The notes under the pieces were generated by a model. It saw only the letters and a list, made by a program, of their open reading frames with translations, had not been told where the DNA came from and ran no database searches. 64,000 nt of DNA from Escherichia phage HK6, in sequence record PP724615.1; one strand, written 5' to 3'. The translations under genes were made by a program, and so were the position numbers. Every line of letters starts with the position of its first letter. Within the stretch, counting starts at the first letter, position 1. Shown here piece after piece: positions 25,941-31,816 of this stretch.

Positions 25941-26510
25941 TTAGAAATTTAGCTTCATAGCAAGAAAATTTTTCAAGTTTTCGGTAGACATCTCATCCAC
26001 ATCTACAGGAGAAACAAATCCATTTAATTTTCTAGCAAATTTTTCACCAGCAGGATCGTTGTCCCCGACAGCTACTAATTTAAAAGGTAATAATTTCAAT
26101 TGCTTTAATAACGCTTTTCCTGGAGAAGAACCCAACATTGCCAGGGCTGGGTAACCAGCATTATGTAACGCAACTGCCTTAAATACAGATTCAGCGATCA
26201 ATACTACTTTTTCATCTCCATTGAGAGTTTCTAGTCCCCATACACACTGGGTAGTAGAATAAGTAAAGTATTTAGCTTCAAAGGGGCACTTACCATGACC
26301 TTTTGGAGCAGAAGGATTGTAAGTTTGATAGCCCCTCAACATCCCAGAGAAGTCATACAACGGGACAGTTAGCCATCCTTCCGGACTTAACCAGCAATGA
26401 TATTTATCTGTATCAAATCCTCTAGATAAGAGGTGCTGTGTTAGCTCATCAACATTCATATTTGGTTCCTCTCTCAAATTTATAGATATATTATACAGAG
26501 AATTTAGCAT
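25941..26510 (-). CDS. Toprim-domain protein (189 aa)
   Basis: VAVGDNDPAGEKFARKL resembles the Toprim DxD acidic motif; no zinc-binding primase domain. Confidence 0.5.
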   Translation of the reverse strand: MLNSLYNISINLREEPNMNVDELTQHLLSRGFDTDKYHCWLSPEGWLTVPLYDFSGMLRGYQTYNPSAPKGHGKCPFEAKYFTYSTTQCVWGLETLNGDEKVVLIAESVFKAVALHNAGYPALAMLGSSPGKALLKQLKLLPFKLVAVGDNDPAGEKFARKLNGFVSPVDVDEMSTENLKNFLAMKLNF

Positions 26511-26663: not shown

Positions 26664-26725
26664 ATATGTTATGGATGAGTGATCAAAGAGACACACATTT
26701 TCTATATACTAGGAGGTGTCAAAAA

Positions 26726-27718
26726 ATGACAGAAGAAGTAGCTAAGAGTCCTGAGACCGTCGCTAGCGTTGCAGCAGAACTGCACCGTCACGAGGAATCA
26801 GATAAGAAAAAGTGGGAGAAGGTCAGAGCCTACGAAGAAAAACATCGTGAACACGATGAAGATGATAAAGAAGATGACGATGATGAGCATTGTCATAAAT
26901 ATGGAAAACATAAAATGCAAGAACCAGTAAACGTATTTACTAGTGGCTTCCCTGGCCTACTGGGTGGTTACCCAGCAAACGCAGGTGCTTTCGGTGGTGA
27001 AGGTATGGGACTATTCGGAGCTATCCTAATCGGTGCTCTATTAACAGGCGGATTCGGTGGATTCGGTGGATTCGGTGGACGTGGTATAGTTGGTGATGGT
27101 ACCGCAGTTGATGCAGTACTTCAGAACCAAGATACCGCTAGTATTCTAGCAGCTATTAACACTACTCGTACAGAAGCTAATCAGGGTACTGGAGCTGTTT
27201 TAAGCGCAGTTAACAATGGTTTTAGCCAGACATCCCAAAACCAGAGCCGTGATACTCAGTCTGTACTAACTACGATCTATGGTACGGGTGCTAATCTGTC
27301 TAATCAAATCTGCCAGGAAACTCGCAACGTTATTCAGGGTCAGTTCGATCTTTCTCGCCAGATTGATCAATCTTTCGCAGCTAACCAGATAGCTCGTGCA
27401 CAAGATAAGTTTGATTCTGCACAGATCGCTTTCCAGCAGACTTTACAAACTAATAACCAGTTTGCCGCTGTTCAGGCTCAGATGTGTGCTAACCAGAACT
27501 CTCTGGAACGTCAGATTGCTGAATGTTGCTGTGAACTTCAGACTGCGATCGCTGGTGTAACTACTGCGCGTATCCAGGATGAGTTAGATGCGTGTCGCCT
27601 ACGTGAAGCAATCGCTGCGGGTAGCGGTGCTAACGGTCAGGTAATTAATCAAATCGCTTTAAGTCTTGGTACTATCACTCAGACTCTGGCTGGTCTGCAG
27701 GCTAAACTGCCGGCTTAA
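26726..27718 (+). CDS. Low-complexity membrane protein, acidic N-terminus, GGFGGFGGFGG segment, Q/T/N-rich C-terminus (330 aa)
   Basis: Start at the ATG 8 nt after AGGAGG (track ORF begins 26666); hydrophobic glycine-zipper GMGLFGAILIGALLTGGFGGFGGFGGRG; no family recognised. Confidence 0.65.
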   Translation: MTEEVAKSPETVASVAAELHRHEESDKKKWEKVRAYEEKHREHDEDDKEDDDDEHCHKYGKHKMQEPVNVFTSGFPGLLGGYPANAGAFGGEGMGLFGAILIGALLTGGFGGFGGFGGRGIVGDGTAVDAVLQNQDTASILAAINTTRTEANQGTGAVLSAVNNGFSQTSQNQSRDTQSVLTTIYGTGANLSNQICQETRNVIQGQFDLSRQIDQSFAANQIARAQDKFDSAQIAFQQTLQTNNQFAAVQAQMCANQNSLERQIAECCCELQTAIAGVTTARIQDELDACRLREAIAAGSGANGQVINQIALSLGTITQTLAGLQAKLPA

Positions 27719-27739
27719 TATTAAGGGGAGGAGCCCATT

Positions 27740-28156
27740 ATGAGTAAATATGGTTTTGTAAATAACGGACTTAATCAAAGTATGGGCTCCCAGCAGCCCA
27801 TTCCGGGTCTGGATAACCCCTACTTACAACAGTTGCAACAGCGTTTAGCAGAAGCGCAACAGATGCAGCAACAACTCCAGCAAAACCCTGGAAGTGTAAG
27901 TCCTATGCAAATGATGCAGCAAATGAGCGGGCAGTCGCAAATGCCTCAACAAATGCAGCAACAGATTCCGCAGCAGCAAGTTCAGCAACAAACCCAACAA
28001 CCGCAGGTTTCTGCGGAAGGACAGGCAGTACTAGCCCTTTTCGAAGACTTCGCAAAGACAGAGGATGGAAAACAGCTTGTATCACTTATGGGTAAGTTTA
28101 ATAGCTTCTGCCAAAGCCAAGTTGCAAAAGCTCAAAATGGTGGTAATAACTCCTAA
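27740..28156 (+). CDS. Gln-rich low-complexity protein (138 aa)
   Basis: RBS GGGGAGGAG; about 40 percent Q in the central region. Confidence 0.6.
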   Translation: MSKYGFVNNGLNQSMGSQQPIPGLDNPYLQQLQQRLAEAQQMQQQLQQNPGSVSPMQMMQQMSGQSQMPQQMQQQIPQQQVQQQTQQPQVSAEGQAVLALFEDFAKTEDGKQLVSLMGKFNSFCQSQVAKAQNGGNNS

Positions 28157-28165
28157 GGAGGAATT

Positions 28166-28360
28166 ATGTGTTGCAGAAAATCTGTTTCGTGCTGCCCAAT
28201 GCCTGTAGCACGTTGTTGCTCTCCAGCAATGTTTACGCAAATACCGGCGTTCAATCCGTTTGCCTTTAAGCCTACTCTTATCCTGCCCCCTAGAGTAGAT
28301 TTTCAGTCAAGATTGGCCTCCCGTATGGGTGGTTGCTGTAACAAGAGTATATGGTTCTAA
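28166..28360 (+). CDS. Small Cys-doublet protein (64 aa, four CC pairs)
   Basis: RBS AAGGAGG; MCCRKSVSCCPMPVARCC...GGCCNKSIWF. Confidence 0.55.
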   Translation: MCCRKSVSCCPMPVARCCSPAMFTQIPAFNPFAFKPTLILPPRVDFQSRLASRMGGCCNKSIWF

Positions 28361-28375
28361 GGAACCAAACAATAA

Positions 28376-28406
28376 AGCCCCTAAGTCTTTCGACTAGGGG
28401 CTTTTC
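28376..28406 (+). terminator. Rho-independent terminator ending the plus-strand operon
   Basis: GCCCCTAG..CTAGGGGC stem followed by TTTTCTTTT. Confidence 0.75.
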
Positions 28407-28426
28407 TTTTATCTTAAATACAGAAA

Positions 28427-28455
28427 AGCCCGCGCTTTCGGAGAAAACGCGGGCT
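28427..28455 (-). terminator. Rho-independent terminator downstream of SPFH gene
   Basis: AGCCCGCG..CGCGGGCT stem followed on the minus strand by TTTTCTGTATTT. Confidence 0.7.
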
Positions 28456-28479
28456 TGGTTCGAAGATTACGTGTAACTA

Positions 28480-29427
28480 TTACTTGTTACGCATATCCAT
28501 AATCATTTGACCATCATAGCCAGTGCCAACTACAGTCTGAGGTACACCACCTTGATACTTCTGAGCACGAATCATTTCAACTTCCAGTTGCTTCCAGCGA
28601 ATCATCTCAGGAGTAATGGTACGTTGCAATGCGGCGTTAGCTTCAGCTTCTTTCTTAGCTGCGTACAGTTTAGCATCTGCGTCACGTTCATTAGCAATAG
28701 CTTGGTTGTTGCGAGCCTCACGATCTGCTTCTGCTTGTTTAACTTTTTGCTGTGCTTCCTGTTCAACGCGAGCGAGTTCAGCTTTCGCAGCATTAACTTG
28801 TTCTTCACGAACTTTGGTATTCTGTACCTGTTCCATGATTACCGGTGGCAAAGTAATATCCTGAAGAAACACCTGCTTAACTGTGTAACCATATGGGCGT
28901 GCATACTCTTCAACTTCCTGTTGAATTGCAGTTTGCAATTGAGCCTGAATTTTAGCATCAAATAAATCTTGTGCTTTAGGTACAGACTTACCAAACTCAC
29001 GAATAGTAGACAGTAATTTTTCAGTTACATATTTGTCTAACGCTTGATCCTGAGTACCTGCGTTAATACGGTTAATCGGTGCCTTAGAACCATCAAACTG
29101 CAACATAACAGTCAAGTCAACAGTGGATTTAAACTTGTCCTGGCTAGGAACCTGAAGTTTATCTAATTTTACAGCAATATCTTTTGTACTAAAAGTATCA
29201 AAAGATGCAAACGGGTTTACAAGATGGAAACCAGGCAATACTGGATTAGGGTCTACTTTACCCAGGAATGTTTGGGTTTTAACCGTACCATCAGAAACAA
29301 TAGTATATGAATTAAAAGCTAGGATTAAACCTGCTAAACCAACTACAGCACCAATACCCCAACGTTTAATAGTACGAATTACTTTCTGCTCAGAAGTCAG
29401 TTCTTTCATATTTTTAGTATTAAACAT
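28480..29427 (-). CDS. SPFH/band-7 (stomatin/prohibitin-like) membrane protein (315 aa)
   Basis: N-terminal TM, SPFH-like core, long Ala/Gln/Glu-rich coiled coil. Confidence 0.7.
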   Translation of the reverse strand: MFNTKNMKELTSEQKVIRTIKRWGIGAVVGLAGLILAFNSYTIVSDGTVKTQTFLGKVDPNPVLPGFHLVNPFASFDTFSTKDIAVKLDKLQVPSQDKFKSTVDLTVMLQFDGSKAPINRINAGTQDQALDKYVTEKLLSTIREFGKSVPKAQDLFDAKIQAQLQTAIQQEVEEYARPYGYTVKQVFLQDITLPPVIMEQVQNTKVREEQVNAAKAELARVEQEAQQKVKQAEADREARNNQAIANERDADAKLYAAKKEAEANAALQRTITPEMIRWKQLEVEMIRAQKYQGGVPQTVVGTGYDGQMIMDMRNK

Positions 29428-29461
29428 ATATTTCCTTTGTTTTAGTTACAGTTAATAAAAT

Positions 29462-29536
29462 TGGCCGAGGTGACAGGATTCGAACCTGCATAAAGGAATT
29501 TAGAAGACTCCTGCCTCTCCCTTAGACTACACCCCG
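29462..29536 (-). tRNA. tRNA-Arg (TCT)
   Basis: Acceptor CGGGGTG/CACCTCG; anticodon arm GGAGT-CTTCTAA-ATTCC; T-arm GCAGG-TTCGAAT-CCTGT. Confidence 0.65.
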
Positions 29537-30040
29537 TTTAAGTATTTTTAAGAACTCTCGTAAAAACTCTTAAAAATACAGACGATACCGGGAGAGTCAT
29601 AAGTCTCACTCATTAAGTATTTCAAGACAAAATACGGTAACGTCTATTATTTTCCAGTTTAAGTCAGGGTGACTTAGTGGTTATGTCCTGCGGTATATTG
29701 AGGACTCGGTTAGGCTTGGGGTCATGACTTCCCGCCTTTTGCTGCTACTCAACAGGAATTATCGCGAATTACCTGTGCTATTGTGCACCATTAGTGACAT
29801 CTCTCATGTCAGCATTTCCCACTTTGTGGATAGCTTGAAAAACTACTCCGATATGGAGAAAGAACTTCACTATCCTAGAATACCTTCTAAAGTTCTTCTT
29901 TAGCCTGGACATAGTTAAATCGTAATAAAACTATTCAGCAGACTGGTTGGTTAGTCTGGAACCAACTACCGCGTGGTTTAGGCAGTGCGCAACTAACCTC
30001 GGAAGCTTTTACGTTAAAAGCACCAGTTATCCAGTTCTTA

Positions 30041-30112
30041 CCGACCGTAGGATTCGAACCTACATCTTCCACCAGTTACGGCTTGATAATACCAATTATA
30101 ATAGGACGGCAG
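30041..30112 (-). ncRNA. tRNA-like element without a clean anticodon stem
   Basis: Canonical T-arm GTAGG-TTCGAAT-CCTAC and partial acceptor pairing; no 5+7+5 anticodon arm found. Confidence 0.3.
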
Positions 30113-30370
30113 TGTTACTACATAAGTGATTTCCATACCCCACTATTTATAAATTAGAGAAGAGTTTAGGGGAGAGGTTTCAGACGCCTCATTTTACACG
30201 TTCTAGCCACTAACCGGGATTGCCGCCCCCTGTGTACTAGTTTTACAACTAACCCACCGACTCTATTCAATGCGCTCCGGTTGGGATTCTGCATTCAGCG
30301 TAATCGGCTCGCTGTTCCCTAATTTATGAATATATTATACATAATTTATAAGCATTTAGCAAATGAATTT

Positions 30371-30805
30371 TTAGAAAAATTCACTAGCAATCAAAGCAGT
30401 TGTTTTACCGTCATAACGTCCAGGAAACTCTGCCTTAATAGTTTTCATTAATAGAGCTTTGGTAATACCTGGGTTTAATTTAACCAGTTCTGCAAAATAC
30501 TCACGAATTTCAGTTTCAGTCAGTTGACTTGGCTGATACTCTTGCAGCATGGAATAAAGCAGTTGCTCATAGTCTACATCAGTAGGAACTTTCGTACCAA
30601 CTTTAATAGCGCGCTGTTTTGCATTTTCTAGAGCCTTAATCTGAGCTTTCAGATAGGCTACGAACTCGGTTCGAGTAACAATGTCTTTATCAATACGTTG
30701 CAGATCACCAATCATGGTCTGAAGATTAAGTGCCCGCTCTTTATCACCGTGAGTACGTGCTAGACTAAGCAGTCCACGAAGGGTCATTAGGATATTTTCA
30801 CCCAT
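30371..30805 (-). CDS. Hypothetical protein (144 aa)
   Basis: ORF track. Confidence 0.55.
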   Translation of the reverse strand: MGENILMTLRGLLSLARTHGDKERALNLQTMIGDLQRIDKDIVTRTEFVAYLKAQIKALENAKQRAIKVGTKVPTDVDYEQLLYSMLQEYQPSQLTETEIREYFAELVKLNPGITKALLMKTIKAEFPGRYDGKTTALIASEFF

Positions 30806-31043: not shown

Positions 31044-31511
31044 TTAAGTTTTAGTGACAACAGGTTTATAGAATGTATGTCCCTTAATCTTAGTTGTTTT
31101 CTTAAATTTCTTTGTCCAGTAAGGTTTATCTTTACCACTATGGAAGTATAGTGCTCCATGTGTAGGATCTTGTGGTAAATCAACGTAGTATATCACTCTA
31201 GCTAAATTCTTAGCGGTTTGCCAAGCCTCATCAGTTTTATCAACTTTTGGTCTCTTAGATACCCAAGAGAACTGGTTAGACTGATATACTACTTTACAGT
31301 AGGAATCTGGGAATTTACCGGAGTTTACACGGTTTTTAGTAACATGTGCAATCGCCGTCATTCCCTTTATGCCCTCACCACGACTTTCGAAATAGATATT
31401 TTTAGCAATGCAATCTATTTCTTTTGCATCGTGCGATGCCTGACTACTAAAGCTGAAGGTAAGGGCAGCTACTAAAAGCAAAGCTGCCTTCATTCTTCTT
31501 ACTCCTGCCAA
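31044..31511 (-). CDS. Secreted SleB-like cell wall hydrolase (155 aa)
   Basis: Signal peptide; IAKNIYFESRGEG...TAIAHVTKNRV resembles the SleB/hydrolase_2 family. Confidence 0.7.
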   Translation of the reverse strand: MAGVRRMKAALLLVAALTFSFSSQASHDAKEIDCIAKNIYFESRGEGIKGMTAIAHVTKNRVNSGKFPDSYCKVVYQSNQFSWVSKRPKVDKTDEAWQTAKNLARVIYYVDLPQDPTHGALYFHSGKDKPYWTKKFKKTTKIKGHTFYKPVVTKT

Positions 31512-31816
31512 TCATATTCAACACGATTGGGATTTTCTTTATACCCTAAGTCAAGCAAATCATTACGCATATTTTGCTTAGCTACTGGGTTCGAGGTTAC
31601 TAGTACCACTTTCTTTGGTCTCTGCCCAAATTCTAAGAGTAAACGAAGAATTTGATAACCTTCCATACCATCTACAGCCAAGTCATTATCCATATAAACG
31701 AAATGGCCTGTGGTATCAGTTTTATTCAGAAACTCTACAGCGGCTTCTGGGGTTCGAATGATAATGTCCATTCCGTGAAGATTACGCACATCATCAATCA
31801 AAATATGAAAAGTCAT
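31499..31816 (-). CDS. CheY-like receiver-domain candidate (105 aa)
   Basis: ILIDDV, VYMDNDL and LVTSNP spaced like receiver-domain acidic pocket, phospho-Asp and conserved Thr/Ser; weak. Confidence 0.4.
   Translation of the reverse strand: MTFHILIDDVRNLHGMDIIIRTPEAAVEFLNKTDTTGHFVYMDNDLAVDGMEGYQILRLLLEFGQRPKKVVLVTSNPVAKQNMRNDLLDLGYKENPNRVEYDWQE

What the first reader, a model, noticed from the sequence alone, without database searches (positions are those of the whole stretch)
28480..29427. SPFH/band-7 family membrane protein in a phage early region
N-terminal anchor, SPFH-like core and a long charged coiled coil. SPFH proteins organise membrane microdomains and regulate membrane proteases; a phage copy could modulate host envelope proteolysis or take part in exclusion.
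Basis: partly seen in the sequence, partly recalled or inferred. Interest (0 to 1): 0.45.

Follow-up and report, generated by a model that had tools for sequence, protein, structure and literature searches.

The report
Phage T5 SPFH (band-7) membrane protein
This is a real gene for a membrane-anchored SPFH/band-7 scaffold protein (gene T5.080 of T5-like phages). It has been annotated as band 7 since 2005, is strongly conserved in nature and is dispensable in the laboratory; its function is still unknown.

Summary
Window 28480-29427 (- strand) is an intact 315-aa ORF, 99.4% identical to T5.080 of phage T5. It hits Pfam Band_7 at E=2e-17 (64 bits, cut-off 23.6). The structure model shows an N-terminal TM helix, an SPFH core, a 76-residue helix, a hinge, a second helix and a conserved tail. 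Foldseek matches it over its full length to the erlin, prohibitin, HflK/C, stomatin and QmcA cage proteins.

It is not new: GenBank AY587007 already labels it "band 7 protein". It is not an HflK/HflC orthologue, has no NfeD partner, and is not a lipoprotein, since it has no Cys. It belongs to a clade found so far only in phage contexts: T5-like, T4-like, N4-like, T7-like phages and Grimontviridae.

About 98% of T5-like genomes keep it, and dN/dS is 0.01-0.15. Yet a CRISPRi-ART screen of T5 scored it "Not Fit".

Most likely it forms a ring or cage on the periplasmic face of the inner membrane. It tends to lie near periplasmic lysis genes: a SleB-like hydrolase in T5-like phages, and the rI antiholin in T4-like phages. 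This hints at envelope or lysis control, but that is inference only. Interest is low to moderate.

The parts
28480..29427 (-). SPFH/band-7 protein gene, 315 aa plus stop; orthologue of T5.080
   Evidence: ORF list. Band_7 E=2e-17. 99.4% identical to AY543070 T5.080. dN/dS 0.013-0.15.
29362..29427 (-). Codons 1-22: basic N-terminal tail, 6 K/R, net charge +4; predicted cytoplasmic
   Evidence: Charge count. The N-flank is net positive in 36 of 37 homologues. Topology is inferred from the positive-inside rule.
29299..29361 (-). Codons 23-43: single hydrophobic TM helix / uncleaved signal anchor. No lipobox; the protein has no Cys
   Evidence: Hydropathy maximum at residues 25-43. Model helix 12-38. 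No lipobox in any of 37 homologues.
28753..29274 (-). Codons 52-225: SPFH (Band_7) domain, containing the invariant VPSQDK motif (residues 93-98)
   Evidence: Pfam match covers residues 52-225. Invariant columns in alignment A1. Beta strands and helices in the model.
28558..28845 (-). Codons 195-290: long Ala/Glu/Gln/Lys-rich helix (195-270), hinge with invariant T270/T272 in TITPE, then second helix (273-290). These would be the wall and roof helices of an SPFH cage
   Evidence: DSSP on the model, pLDDT 75-91 in this stretch. Full-length Foldseek alignments to erlin, prohibitin and HflK/C chains. Invariant T270/T272.
28483..28557 (-). Codons 291-315: conserved C-terminal tail (GGVPQTVVG...MIMDMRNK), disordered in the monomer model; candidate apex beta-strand of the oligomer
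   Evidence: pLDDT below 50 for 291-315, yet G293, V295, P296, T298, G301, D311 and R313 are at least 90% conserved. The role is inferred by analogy with solved cages.
29433..29437 (-). Shine-Dalgarno AAGGA, 5 nt upstream of the ATG
   Evidence: Read directly from the sequence.
29462..29536 (-). tRNA-Arg(TCT), 34 nt upstream of the ORF on the same strand; probably co-transcribed
   Evidence: ARAGORN. Rfam tRNA 49.3 bits. T5 annotation.
29537..30322 (-). Equivalent of T5 'RNAX', a stable RNA of unknown function; holds a degenerate tRNA-like element at about 30039-30111
   Evidence: T5 annotation: misc_RNA rnaX and a pseudo-tRNA. Weak tRNA-clan hit of 23 bits, below the gathering score.
30334..30362 (-). 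Sigma-70 promoter-like site TTGCTA-17-TATAAT, corresponding to T5 promoter P16-17; probable start of the RNAX / tRNA-Arg / SPFH transcription unit
   Evidence: Promoter scan, 10 of 12 matches. Position matches the T5 'promoter P 16-17' annotation.
28426..28456 (-). Intrinsic terminator hairpin (14 bp, 8 G-C) plus T-run, 24 nt after the stop codon. Its 3' arm carries the T5 nick consensus AA^GCGCG (nick between 28436 and 28435)
   Evidence: Terminator scan. Sequence. T5 annotation 'major DNA single-chain interruption' / 'nick 3, 32.6%'.
28374..28405 (.). Second hairpin, AAAAGCCCCTAGTC-GAAA-GACTTAGGGGCTTT; a bidirectional terminator shared with the convergent + strand genes
   Evidence: Sequence. 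T5 annotation 'efficient bidirectional rho-independent transcription terminator' maps to window 28367-28409.
31044..31511 (-). Context gene T5.083: SleB-like cell-wall hydrolase (Hydrolase_2) with a Sec signal peptide, 1.6 kb upstream on the same strand
   Evidence: Pfam Hydrolase_2 E=2.4e-25. N-terminus MAGVRRMKAALLLVAALTFSFSSQA|SH. Linked to the SPFH gene in several phage lineages.

Best explanation
**Shown.**
- The gene encodes a genuine SPFH/band-7 protein and is the orthologue of T5.080.
- It sits last in a - strand unit: promoter, stable RNA 'RNAX', tRNA-Arg, then the ORF, closed by a strong terminator.
- It is under strong purifying selection and is kept by about 98% of T5-like phages.
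- It belongs to a clade seen here only in phage contexts, spread across unrelated virulent phages of Gram-negative hosts.
- It is dispensable for T5 growth on a laboratory E. coli strain.

**Inferred with fair confidence.**
- The basic N-terminal tail stays in the cytoplasm and the single TM helix spans the inner membrane. The SPFH core, the roughly 11-nm helix, the hinge and the conserved tail then lie in the periplasm. This is the HflK/HflC, prohibitin and erlin type of topology.
- Like every solved full-length SPFH protein, it probably assembles into a homo-oligomeric ring or cage that fences off a patch of membrane. The helices would form the wall and roof, and the C-terminal strands would close the apex.

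**Inferred weakly (the mechanism I commit to).**
- The cage acts as an accessory envelope-control device during infection. It would enclose or shield particular inner-membrane or periplasm-tethered proteins and so change their stability or timing, much as HflK/C does for FtsH substrates and prohibitin does for m-AAA substrates.
- The gene recurs next to periplasm-acting lysis genes: a secreted SleB-like peptidoglycan hydrolase in T5-like and other phages, and the rI antiholin / rI.-1 pair in T4-like phages. The clients are therefore more likely lysis or cell-wall factors, or the host proteases that degrade them, than a lambda-CII type of lysogeny control. These phages are virulent.
For: **Identity**
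- Band_7 E=2e-17.
- AlphaFold2 model with mean pLDDT 77: TM helix, SPFH core, helix 195-270, helix 273-290.
- Foldseek full-length matches to erlin1/2 (4e-15), prohibitin (9e-14), HflK/C (1e-12), stomatin and QmcA cages.
- Profile search against the PDB: QmcA 2.6e-17, prohibitin-2 3.9e-17, HflC 7e-13.

**Transcription unit:**

**Selection and retention**
- dN/dS 0.013-0.15.
- 438 phage records carry the protein at 80% identity or more, against 443 carrying the T5-type DNA polymerase at 80% or more.

**Seen only in phage contexts:** the nearest 'bacterial' entries, P0122 and P0129, lie among T7-like phage genes. Other contexts are T4-like, N4-like and Grimontviridae.

**Dispensable:** T5.080 is scored 'Not Fit' with 7 guides in the CRISPRi-ART T5 screen (PMC11879866, supplementary file 16).

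**Topology**
- N-flank net +4 against 0 for the C-flank.
- The N-flank is positive in 36 of 37 homologues.

**Oligomer elements:** the TITPE hinge and the C-terminal tail are conserved although the tail is disordered in the monomer model.

**Linkage to lysis genes**
- A Hydrolase_2 gene lies within 2.5 kb on the same strand in T5-like phages, in L041/L042, in Privateer-type phages and in L013.
- Hydrolase_2 relatives occur in only 1393 of 50,697 phage records.
- In these lineages the SPFH proteins are 75-77% identical to T5's, while the neighbouring hydrolases are only 31-36% identical.
- In all 15 T4-like loci the SPFH gene is 56 bp to 3.5 kb from the antiholin rI + DUF5856 pair, in two different arrangements.
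Against: - No experiment bears on localisation, oligomer state or clients.
- Topology rests only on charge bias. The same simple count is not decisive for E. coli HflK or HflC, which give +2 on both sides.
- The model is a monomer with pTM 0.45; no multimer prediction was possible.
- The linkage evidence is positional. The T4-like rI region is a variable accessory region, so its linkage may reflect one ancestral insertion.
- In T5 and Privateer the hydrolase is also paired with a cREC_REC gene, so part of the synteny may be inherited.
- Several lineages have neither a hydrolase nor rI nearby: N4-like, two T7-like, and L060-L063.
- Knock-down gives no phenotype in the laboratory.
- T5's own holin/endolysin cassette is not adjacent.
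Confidence: 0.45

Rival explanations
1. HflK/C mimic. The phage cage captures host FtsH hexamers, or replaces or poisons the host HflK/C cage. This would change FtsH proteolysis of membrane or regulatory proteins to the phage's benefit. It is the first reader's proteolysis idea.
For: - Same predicted membrane topology and overall architecture as HflC.
- The profile hits HflC at 7e-13.
- Foldseek matches the HflK/C-FtsH complexes 7wi3, 7vhq and 9cz2 at E 1e-12 to 1e-10.
- From established knowledge, SPFH cages of this topology (HflK/C, prohibitin) partner AAA+ membrane proteases.
Against: - No NCBIfam HflK/HflC model matches.
- BLASTP against E. coli HflK and HflC is insignificant.
- QmcA and the prohibitins are at least as close as HflC, and HflK is far (2e-4).
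- There is a single gene rather than a K/C pair.
- The phages are virulent, so there is no CII-type decision to control.
- No contact residues could be tested.
Confidence: 0.2
2. Membrane-integrity scaffold. Like bacterial flotillins and PspA-linked SPFH proteins, it would stabilise or reseal the inner membrane after DNA injection. That would keep the infected cell energised until programmed lysis, without specific clients.
For: - Early-region expression.
- Spread across many virulent phage families.
- No dedicated partner gene is conserved across all lineages.
- SPFH proteins link to membrane-stress responses in the literature (PMC8581546, listed).
Against: - No phenotype on knock-down in the laboratory.
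- PspA-linked SPFH proteins are cytoplasmic, whereas this one is predicted periplasmic.
- This reading does not explain the recurrent placement beside rI or Hydrolase_2.
Confidence: 0.15
3. Superinfection exclusion. The periplasmic cage would block DNA entry or envelope penetration by secondary phages, analogous in outcome to T4 Imm/Sp or T5 Llp. It is the first reader's exclusion idea.
For: - Early, membrane-located, accessory and dispensable in single-phage laboratory culture, which is typical of exclusion genes.
- In T4-like phages it sits next to rI, the sensor of superinfection.
Against: - No similarity to any known exclusion protein and no PADLOC hit.
- 75-77% identity across phages that use different receptors and injection machineries argues against a receptor- or phage-specific block.
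- No experimental hint.
Confidence: 0.1
4. Lipoprotein, as labelled by PHROG_200 and by RefSeq for T5 YP_006908.
For: Best PHROG is phrog_200 'lipoprotein' at 1.7e-86. RefSeq NC_005859 names the product 'lipoprotein'.
Against: The protein has no cysteine. None of 37 homologues has a lipobox, and most lack Cys altogether. The label is a propagated annotation, not a tested property.
Confidence: 0.01

Closest known systems
T5.080 of phage T5 (AAS77126 / YP_006908 / AAX12012) and its orthologues in T5-like phages
   Same: 99.4% identical over all 315 residues. Same neighbours: tRNA-Arg, RNAX, the 32.6% nick and the bidirectional terminator. It is already annotated 'IPR001107: band 7 protein' and 'SPFH domain-containing protein'.
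   Different: Nothing of substance; two amino-acid differences.
E. coli QmcA (stomatin-like SPFH; PDB 8z5g, QmcA-YbbJ cage)
   Same: Best sequence match among solved structures: phmmer 1.8e-6, profile 2.6e-17, BLASTP 5e-9 at 23% identity. Same order of parts: N-terminal TM helix, SPFH core, long helix, C-terminal tail.
   Different: QmcA has no basic residues before its TM helix and is known from the literature to face the cytoplasm. It is encoded next to the NfeD protein YbbJ. The phage protein has a basic N-tail, so the opposite orientation is predicted, and has no NfeD neighbour.
Prohibitin-1/2 and erlin-1/2 (eukaryotic organellar SPFH cages)
   Same: Best structural matches: erlin 4e-15, PHB 9e-14, aligned over about 270-317 columns. 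Profile E-values 4e-17 to 1e-15 for prohibitins. They share the N-terminal TM anchor with the SPFH domain on the non-cytoplasmic side.
   Different: Only 16-19% identity. They form hetero-oligomers of two paralogues in eukaryotic organelle membranes. The phage has a single gene.
E. coli HflK/HflC (modulators of FtsH; PDB 7vhp, 7wi3, 9cz2)
   Same: Predicted periplasmic orientation. Architecture and fold match at Foldseek 1e-12. The profile hits HflC at 7e-13.
   Different: Not orthologous: no NCBIfam hit, and pairwise BLASTP E=0.11 and 0.042. There is no K/C gene pair. It lacks HflK's long N-terminal extension and the HflC insertion.
SPFH genes of T4-like phages (RB43 ORF139c, RB16, GAP161_127, Aeh1 ORF064c, 44RR ORF098c)
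   Same: Same clade, 60-80% identity over more than 90% of the length. Same length and domain order. Function likewise unknown.
   Different: Different genomic setting: beside the rI antiholin / rI.-1 pair rather than beside tRNA genes and a SleB-like hydrolase.

Membership tests
SPFH / Band 7 superfamily (Pfam PF01145) | Significant match to the Band_7 profile above the curated cut-off | tested here: met
   E=2e-17, 64.2 bits against cut-off 23.6, residues 52-225 on profile positions 13-176 of 176.
SPFH / Band 7 superfamily (Pfam PF01145) | SPFH alpha/beta fold followed by long coiled-coil helices | tested here: met
   AF2 model with mean pLDDT 77. 63 PDB matches at E<=1e-3, the top ones all full-length SPFH cage subunits.
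SPFH / Band 7 superfamily (Pfam PF01145) | Membrane attachment through an N-terminal hydrophobic segment | tested here: met
   Single hydrophobic stretch at residues 23-43, present in all 37 aligned homologues.
SPFH / Band 7 superfamily (Pfam PF01145) | Assembly into a large homo- or hetero-oligomeric ring or cage | not testable with these tools
   Only monomer prediction was available. The conserved hinge and C-terminal tail are compatible with a cage but prove nothing.
HflK/HflC, regulators of FtsH | Orthology to HflK or HflC (NCBIfam equivalog models; significant pairwise similarity) | tested here: not met
   No NCBIfam family at E<=1. BLASTP E=0.11 against HflK and 0.042 against HflC. The profile hits HflC at 7e-13 but QmcA and prohibitins score better.
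HflK/HflC, regulators of FtsH | Two adjacent paralogous genes (K and C) forming a hetero-oligomer | tested here: not met
   Only one SPFH gene lies in the +/-10 kb around it in the window and in all 57 related loci examined.
HflK/HflC, regulators of FtsH | SPFH domain exposed to the periplasm | tested here: inconclusive
   The positive-inside count favours N-in/C-out: +4 against 0, and a positive N-flank in 36 of 37 homologues. The same crude count is not decisive on HflK/HflC themselves.
HflK/HflC, regulators of FtsH | Physical and functional interaction with FtsH | not testable with these tools
   Needs pull-down, co-structure or substrate half-life assays.
Stomatin/QmcA-NfeD operon partners | Adjacent gene for an NfeD-family protein | tested here: not met
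   No NfeD among the window neighbours (Pfam), in the annotated T5, GAP161, Aeromonas or Vibrio contexts, or in the Pfam-annotated contigs. E. coli qmcA, by contrast, abuts ybbJ (NfeD).
Bacterial/phage lipoprotein (label of PHROG_200 and RefSeq) | Signal peptide ending in a lipobox with an invariant Cys | tested here: not met
   The protein has zero Cys. No lipobox in any of 37 homologues.
Known anti-phage defence proteins (PADLOC-DB) | Match to a defence-system protein model | tested here: not met
   No family at E<=0.1.

The most novel reading that the evidence does not exclude
The phage SPFH clade would be a new kind of lysis or envelope-timing factor. A periplasm-facing cage would enclose or shield membrane-tethered periplasmic lysis proteins, or the host proteases that destroy them. 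Candidate clients are the unstable antiholin RI in T4-like phages and the secreted SleB-like hydrolase in T5-like and Privateer-like phages. The cage would tune when the envelope is breached, which would explain why it is conserved in nature yet silent in laboratory single-cycle growth.
Probability: 0.12. Interest if true: 0.65.

Novelty: already known. Interest (0 to 1): 0.27.

Why it matters
As a classification it adds nothing: the gene has carried a band-7 label since the T5 genome was published. What remains open is its function.

- SPFH proteins are a universal but poorly understood class of membrane organisers.
- Here a compact single-gene version is kept by about 98% of T5-like phages under strong purifying selection.
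- It has been exchanged at 75-77% identity between unrelated virulent phage families.
- It is dispensable in a laboratory screen.

That pattern is typical of a function that matters only in natural hosts or conditions. Suppose the positional links to periplasmic lysis genes reflect function. Then the protein would give a tractable model for how an SPFH cage selects clients, and would add a new layer of phage lysis control.

Tried and rejected
**Searches that returned nothing**
- NCBIfam gave no hit and PADLOC gave no hit.
- Full-text searches for T5.080, and for SPFH together with phage T5, HflK or defence terms, found no functional study. The only relevant statements are that the role of SPFH proteins in phages is 'poorly understood' (PMC7760394) and a speculative HflC/lysogeny remark for a temperate Burkholderia phage (PMC10269572).
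- Searches for T5 temporal expression data on this gene were uninformative. The HIDEN-SEQ preprint does not cover T5-like phages.
- An Rfam scan of 28000-30500 found only tRNA-Arg above threshold.

**Technical dead ends**
- The search for related loci with the diverse alignments A2 and A3 failed because no conserved 7-10 column stretch exists.
- Single distant queries P0138 and P0129 found no viral contigs.

**Ideas rejected**
- Lipoprotein: rejected, no Cys.
- HflK/HflC orthologue: rejected, see the membership test.
- Bacterial origin of the nearest non-phage database entries: rejected. P0122, on a 4-Mb contig labelled Bacterioplanoides, and P0129, from a Cetobacterium MAG, are both embedded in T7-like phage gene sets.
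- Universal presence in Demerecviridae: rejected. The syntenic 35 kb of the Sugarlandvirus vB_Kpn_B01 has no homologue.
- Co-transfer of SPFH and Hydrolase_2 as one recent block: rejected, because SPFH is 75-77% identical while the hydrolase is only 31-36% identical.
Full report
**What the window is.** The 3 kb around the finding is 97-98% identical to T5-like phages of Salmonella and E. coli: Tequintavirus, Demerecviridae. The window carries 22 tRNA genes on the - strand and the T5-type DNA polymerase. It is therefore the tRNA/early region of a T5-like genome.

**The observation**
- The ORF at 28480..29427 (- strand) is intact: ATG start, 315 aa. An AAGGA ribosome-binding site lies 5 nt upstream.
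- The protein is 99.4% identical to T5.080 of phage T5, AY543070.
  - A basic N-terminal tail with net charge +4, followed by a single hydrophobic stretch at residues 23-43.
  - A Pfam Band_7 match over residues 52-225: E=2e-17, 64.2 bits, cut-off 23.6.
  - An Ala/Glu/Gln/Lys/Arg-rich helical region from about residue 195 to 290.
The observation and the classification stand.

**Structure**
- I built an AlphaFold2 model from 37 phage homologues (alignment A1). It has mean pLDDT 77 and pTM 0.45.
- The model shows, in order:
  - a TM helix at residues 12-38;
  - a beta-rich SPFH core with helices;
  - one continuous helix at 195-270;
  - a break at the sequence TITPE, where T270 and T272 are invariant;
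  - a second helix at 273-290;
  - a low-confidence tail at 291-315. This tail is nonetheless well conserved (GGVPQTVVG...D.R.K).
- Foldseek against the PDB returns full-length alignments to subunits of the solved SPFH cages: erlin1/2 at 4e-15, prohibitin at 9e-14, HflK/C at 1e-12, then stomatin, QmcA and flotillin.
- In those structures the long helix forms the cage wall, the second helix forms the roof, and the C-terminal strands close the apex. This is established knowledge from the entries listed.
- The phage protein has every one of these elements in the same order. That is the basis for inferring a ring or cage. Oligomerisation itself could not be tested.

**Which SPFH family?**
- By single-sequence search against the PDB, the nearest solved protein is E. 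coli QmcA at 1.8e-6, followed by prohibitin-2.
- With a profile of 46 diverse relatives, the ranking is QmcA 2.6e-17, prohibitin-2 3.9e-17, prohibitin-1 about 1e-15, HflC 7e-13, stomatin about 1e-8, erlin about 1e-7 and HflK 2e-4.
- Pairwise BLASTP against the host proteins gives QmcA 5e-9 at 23% identity, HflC 0.042 and HflK 0.11. No NCBIfam model matches.
- The protein is thus about equally far from QmcA, the prohibitins and HflC. It is not an orthologue of any of them.
- No NfeD gene, the usual stomatin/QmcA partner, lies nearby in any context examined. No second SPFH paralogue is present either.
- The 'lipoprotein' label carried by PHROG_200 and by RefSeq is wrong for this family. The protein has no cysteine, and none of 37 homologues has a lipobox.

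**Topology**
- The N-flank is net positive in 36 of 37 homologues, while the flank after the TM segment is near neutral. No signal-peptidase motif is obvious.
- By the positive-inside rule this predicts N-in/C-out. The SPFH domain would then lie in the periplasm, as in HflK/HflC and unlike QmcA, which has no basic residue before its TM helix.
- The crude count is not decisive on HflK/HflC themselves. I treat this as a fair inference, not a result.

**Transcription unit and neighbours**
- The T5 annotation transfers directly to the window. A sigma-70 promoter-like site at 30362..30334 corresponds to T5 P16-17. It is followed by the equivalent of the 719-nt stable 'RNAX', then tRNA-Arg(TCT) at 29536..29462, then the ORF.
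- A 14-bp terminator hairpin at 28456..28426 comes next. A second hairpin at 28405..28374 is annotated in T5 as an efficient bidirectional terminator.
- The first hairpin contains the consensus of the T5 '32.6% major nick', AA^GCGCG at 28436/28435.
- Upstream on the same strand lie a YqeY-like protein, a DUF7616 protein, a SleB-like Hydrolase_2 cell-wall hydrolase with a Sec signal peptide, and a cREC_REC protein.
- Downstream, three + strand genes with no Pfam match converge on the SPFH gene.

**Is it already known?** Yes.
- AY587007, the 2005 T5 record, annotates the product as 'putative transmembrane protein; IPR001107: band 7 protein'.
- Many later records say 'SPFH domain-containing protein'.
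- I found no functional study. One paper states that the role of SPFH proteins in phages is poorly understood (PMC7760394).

**Conservation, spread and dispensability**
- Relatives at 80% identity or more occur in 438 phage records. The T5-type DNA polymerase at 80% or more occurs in 443. About 98% of T5-like genomes therefore keep the gene.
- One natural variant, phage NG_S8, retains only the last 42 codons.
- dN/dS against T5-like orthologues is 0.013-0.15.
- The family is not universal in Demerecviridae. A Sugarlandvirus lacks it in the syntenic 35 kb.
- Outside Demerecviridae it occurs in:
  - T4-like phages of Klebsiella, Enterobacter, Cronobacter, E. coli and Aeromonas, at 60-80% identity;
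  - Grimontviridae such as Proteus phage Privateer, at 76%;
  - uncultured 85-153 kb phages;
  - N4-like Vibrio phages, at about 31-35%;
  - T7-like elements.
- The exhaustive representative search found 955 clusters at E<=1e-3 but only 36 at E<=1e-30. The two named 'bacterial' members I checked are inside T7-like phage gene sets.
- In the CRISPRi-ART transcriptome-wide screen of T5, T5.080 is 'Not Fit': 7 guides, mean about -4.28 (PMC11879866, supplementary file 16). It is therefore dispensable on a laboratory E. coli strain.

**Genomic linkage**
- I called ORFs in 58 stretches (57 related loci plus the window) and searched them with an HMM built from the Hydrolase_2 genes found next to the SPFH gene.
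- A Hydrolase_2 gene lies on the same strand at these distances:
  - 1.5-2.2 kb upstream in all T5-like loci that extend that far;
  - 0.4 kb downstream in L041/L042;
  - 0.7-1.0 kb downstream in Privateer-type phages;
  - 68 bp upstream in L013;
  - 5.5-6.4 kb away in L012 and L055.
- Hydrolase_2 relatives occur in only 1393 of 50,697 phage records, about 440 of which are T5-like.
- Across these families the SPFH proteins are 75-77% identical, but the hydrolases are only 31-36% identical. This is not a recently transferred block.
- The T5-like, L041/L042 and L013 hydrolases carry signal peptides. The Privateer, L055 and L012 ones do not.
- In all 15 T4-like loci the SPFH gene lies near the rI antiholin (PF24205) and rI.-1 (DUF5856) pair. 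It is 56-220 bp downstream in the enterobacterial type and in two metagenomic lineages, and 2.4-3.5 kb upstream in the Aeromonas type.
- Both kinds of neighbour act in the periplasm on lysis. This is suggestive, but there are caveats.
  - The lineages are not independent samples.
  - The T4-like region is an accessory region (my assessment).
  - T5 and Privateer share a cREC_REC-Hydrolase_2 pair, which may be inherited synteny.
  - Several lineages show neither neighbour.

**Best explanation**
- Shown: an SPFH-family, single-pass membrane protein from an early-region transcription unit. It is strongly conserved, has moved horizontally among virulent phages of Gram-negative bacteria, and is dispensable in the laboratory.
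- Inferred with fair confidence: N-in/C-out topology, and homo-oligomeric ring or cage formation on the periplasmic face of the inner membrane.
- Inferred weakly: the cage encloses or shields envelope proteins and alters their stability or timing. Lysis or cell-wall factors, or the proteases acting on them, are the most likely clients.
- Rivals: an HflK/C-like modulator of FtsH (0.2), a client-independent membrane-integrity scaffold (0.15) and superinfection exclusion (0.1). The lipoprotein label is refuted.

**Verdict.** The finding is real and correctly classified, but it is an already annotated gene. Its interest lies only in the unanswered question of function, to which this analysis adds positional clues and a topology prediction but no decisive evidence.

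Noticed in passing
window 28426-28456 (nick between 28436 and 28435, - strand): The terminator hairpin just after the SPFH stop codon contains AA^GCGCG. This matches the consensus of the T5 'major single-chain interruption' annotated at 32.6% of the T5 genome. One of T5's site-specific nicks therefore sits inside an intrinsic terminator stem.
   Followed up: partly
window 29537-30322 (- strand): About 790 nt without a convincing ORF lie between a strong promoter-like site (30362..30334) and tRNA-Arg. This corresponds to T5 'RNAX', a stable RNA of unknown function. It holds a degenerate tRNA-like element at about 30039-30111 (Rfam tRNA clan, 23 bits, below threshold), annotated as a pseudo-tRNA in AY587007. 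The SPFH mRNA appears to be made as the tail of this RNA/tRNA transcript.
   Followed up: partly
window 26666-28360 (+ strand): An island of three + strand genes (T5.077, T5.078, T5.079) sits inside a - strand block and converges on the SPFH gene. The first is a 350-aa protein with a GGFGGFGGFGG glycine run, a Q/A-rich helical part and a CCCE motif. The second is a 138-aa glutamine-rich protein. The third is a 64-aa cysteine-rich peptide with three CC pairs. None has a Pfam match, and all are 'Not Fit' in the CRISPRi-ART table.
   Followed up: partly
window 31044-31816 (- strand); L064 5195-6016: A cREC_REC gene is directly followed by a SleB-like Hydrolase_2 gene, both in this T5-like window and in Proteus phage Privateer (Grimontviridae), each time close to the SPFH gene. 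In T5-like phages the hydrolase has a cleavable Sec signal peptide. It would then be exported early in infection, which is odd for a lytic enzyme. It is separate from the known T5 endolysin.
   Followed up: partly
L007, L014, L046-L054, L056-L058: In all 15 T4-like loci the SPFH gene lies within 56 bp to 3.5 kb of the rI antiholin and rI.-1 (DUF5856) pair, on the same strand. Two different arrangements occur.
   Followed up: yes
L041-L044 compared with the window: The SPFH protein is 75-77% identical between T5-like phages, Privateer-type phages and a 153-kb uncultured phage, while the adjacent hydrolases are only 31-36% identical. This points to recent horizontal exchange of the SPFH gene, or unusually slow evolution, across phage families.
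   Followed up: partly
window 28480-29427; RefSeq NC_005859 T5.080; PHROG_200: The product name 'lipoprotein' (even 'lipopritein' in one record) is spreading through phage annotations via PHROG_200 and RefSeq, although the family has no lipobox and mostly no cysteine.
   Followed up: yes
phage record LC788711.1 (E. coli phage NG_S8), 28690-28815: A T5-like phage keeps only the last 42 codons of the SPFH gene. This is a natural deletion and is consistent with dispensability.
   Followed up: no
L011 (contig labelled Bacterioplanoides sp., 4.0 Mb) and L012 (Cetobacterium MAG contig, 41.7 kb): Database entries named as bacterial SPFH proteins lie inside complete-looking T7-like phage gene sets (T7-type helicase-primase, DNA polymerase A; plus T7 RNA polymerase in L012 and T7-type capsid, connector and tube in L011). 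They are phage or prophage genes rather than host genes.
   Followed up: partly
window 25941-26510 (- strand): A Toprim-domain protein (T5.076) lies just beyond the + strand island. The CRISPRi-ART supplementary table lists it as 'anti-defense, Known, Semi-Fit'.
   Followed up: no
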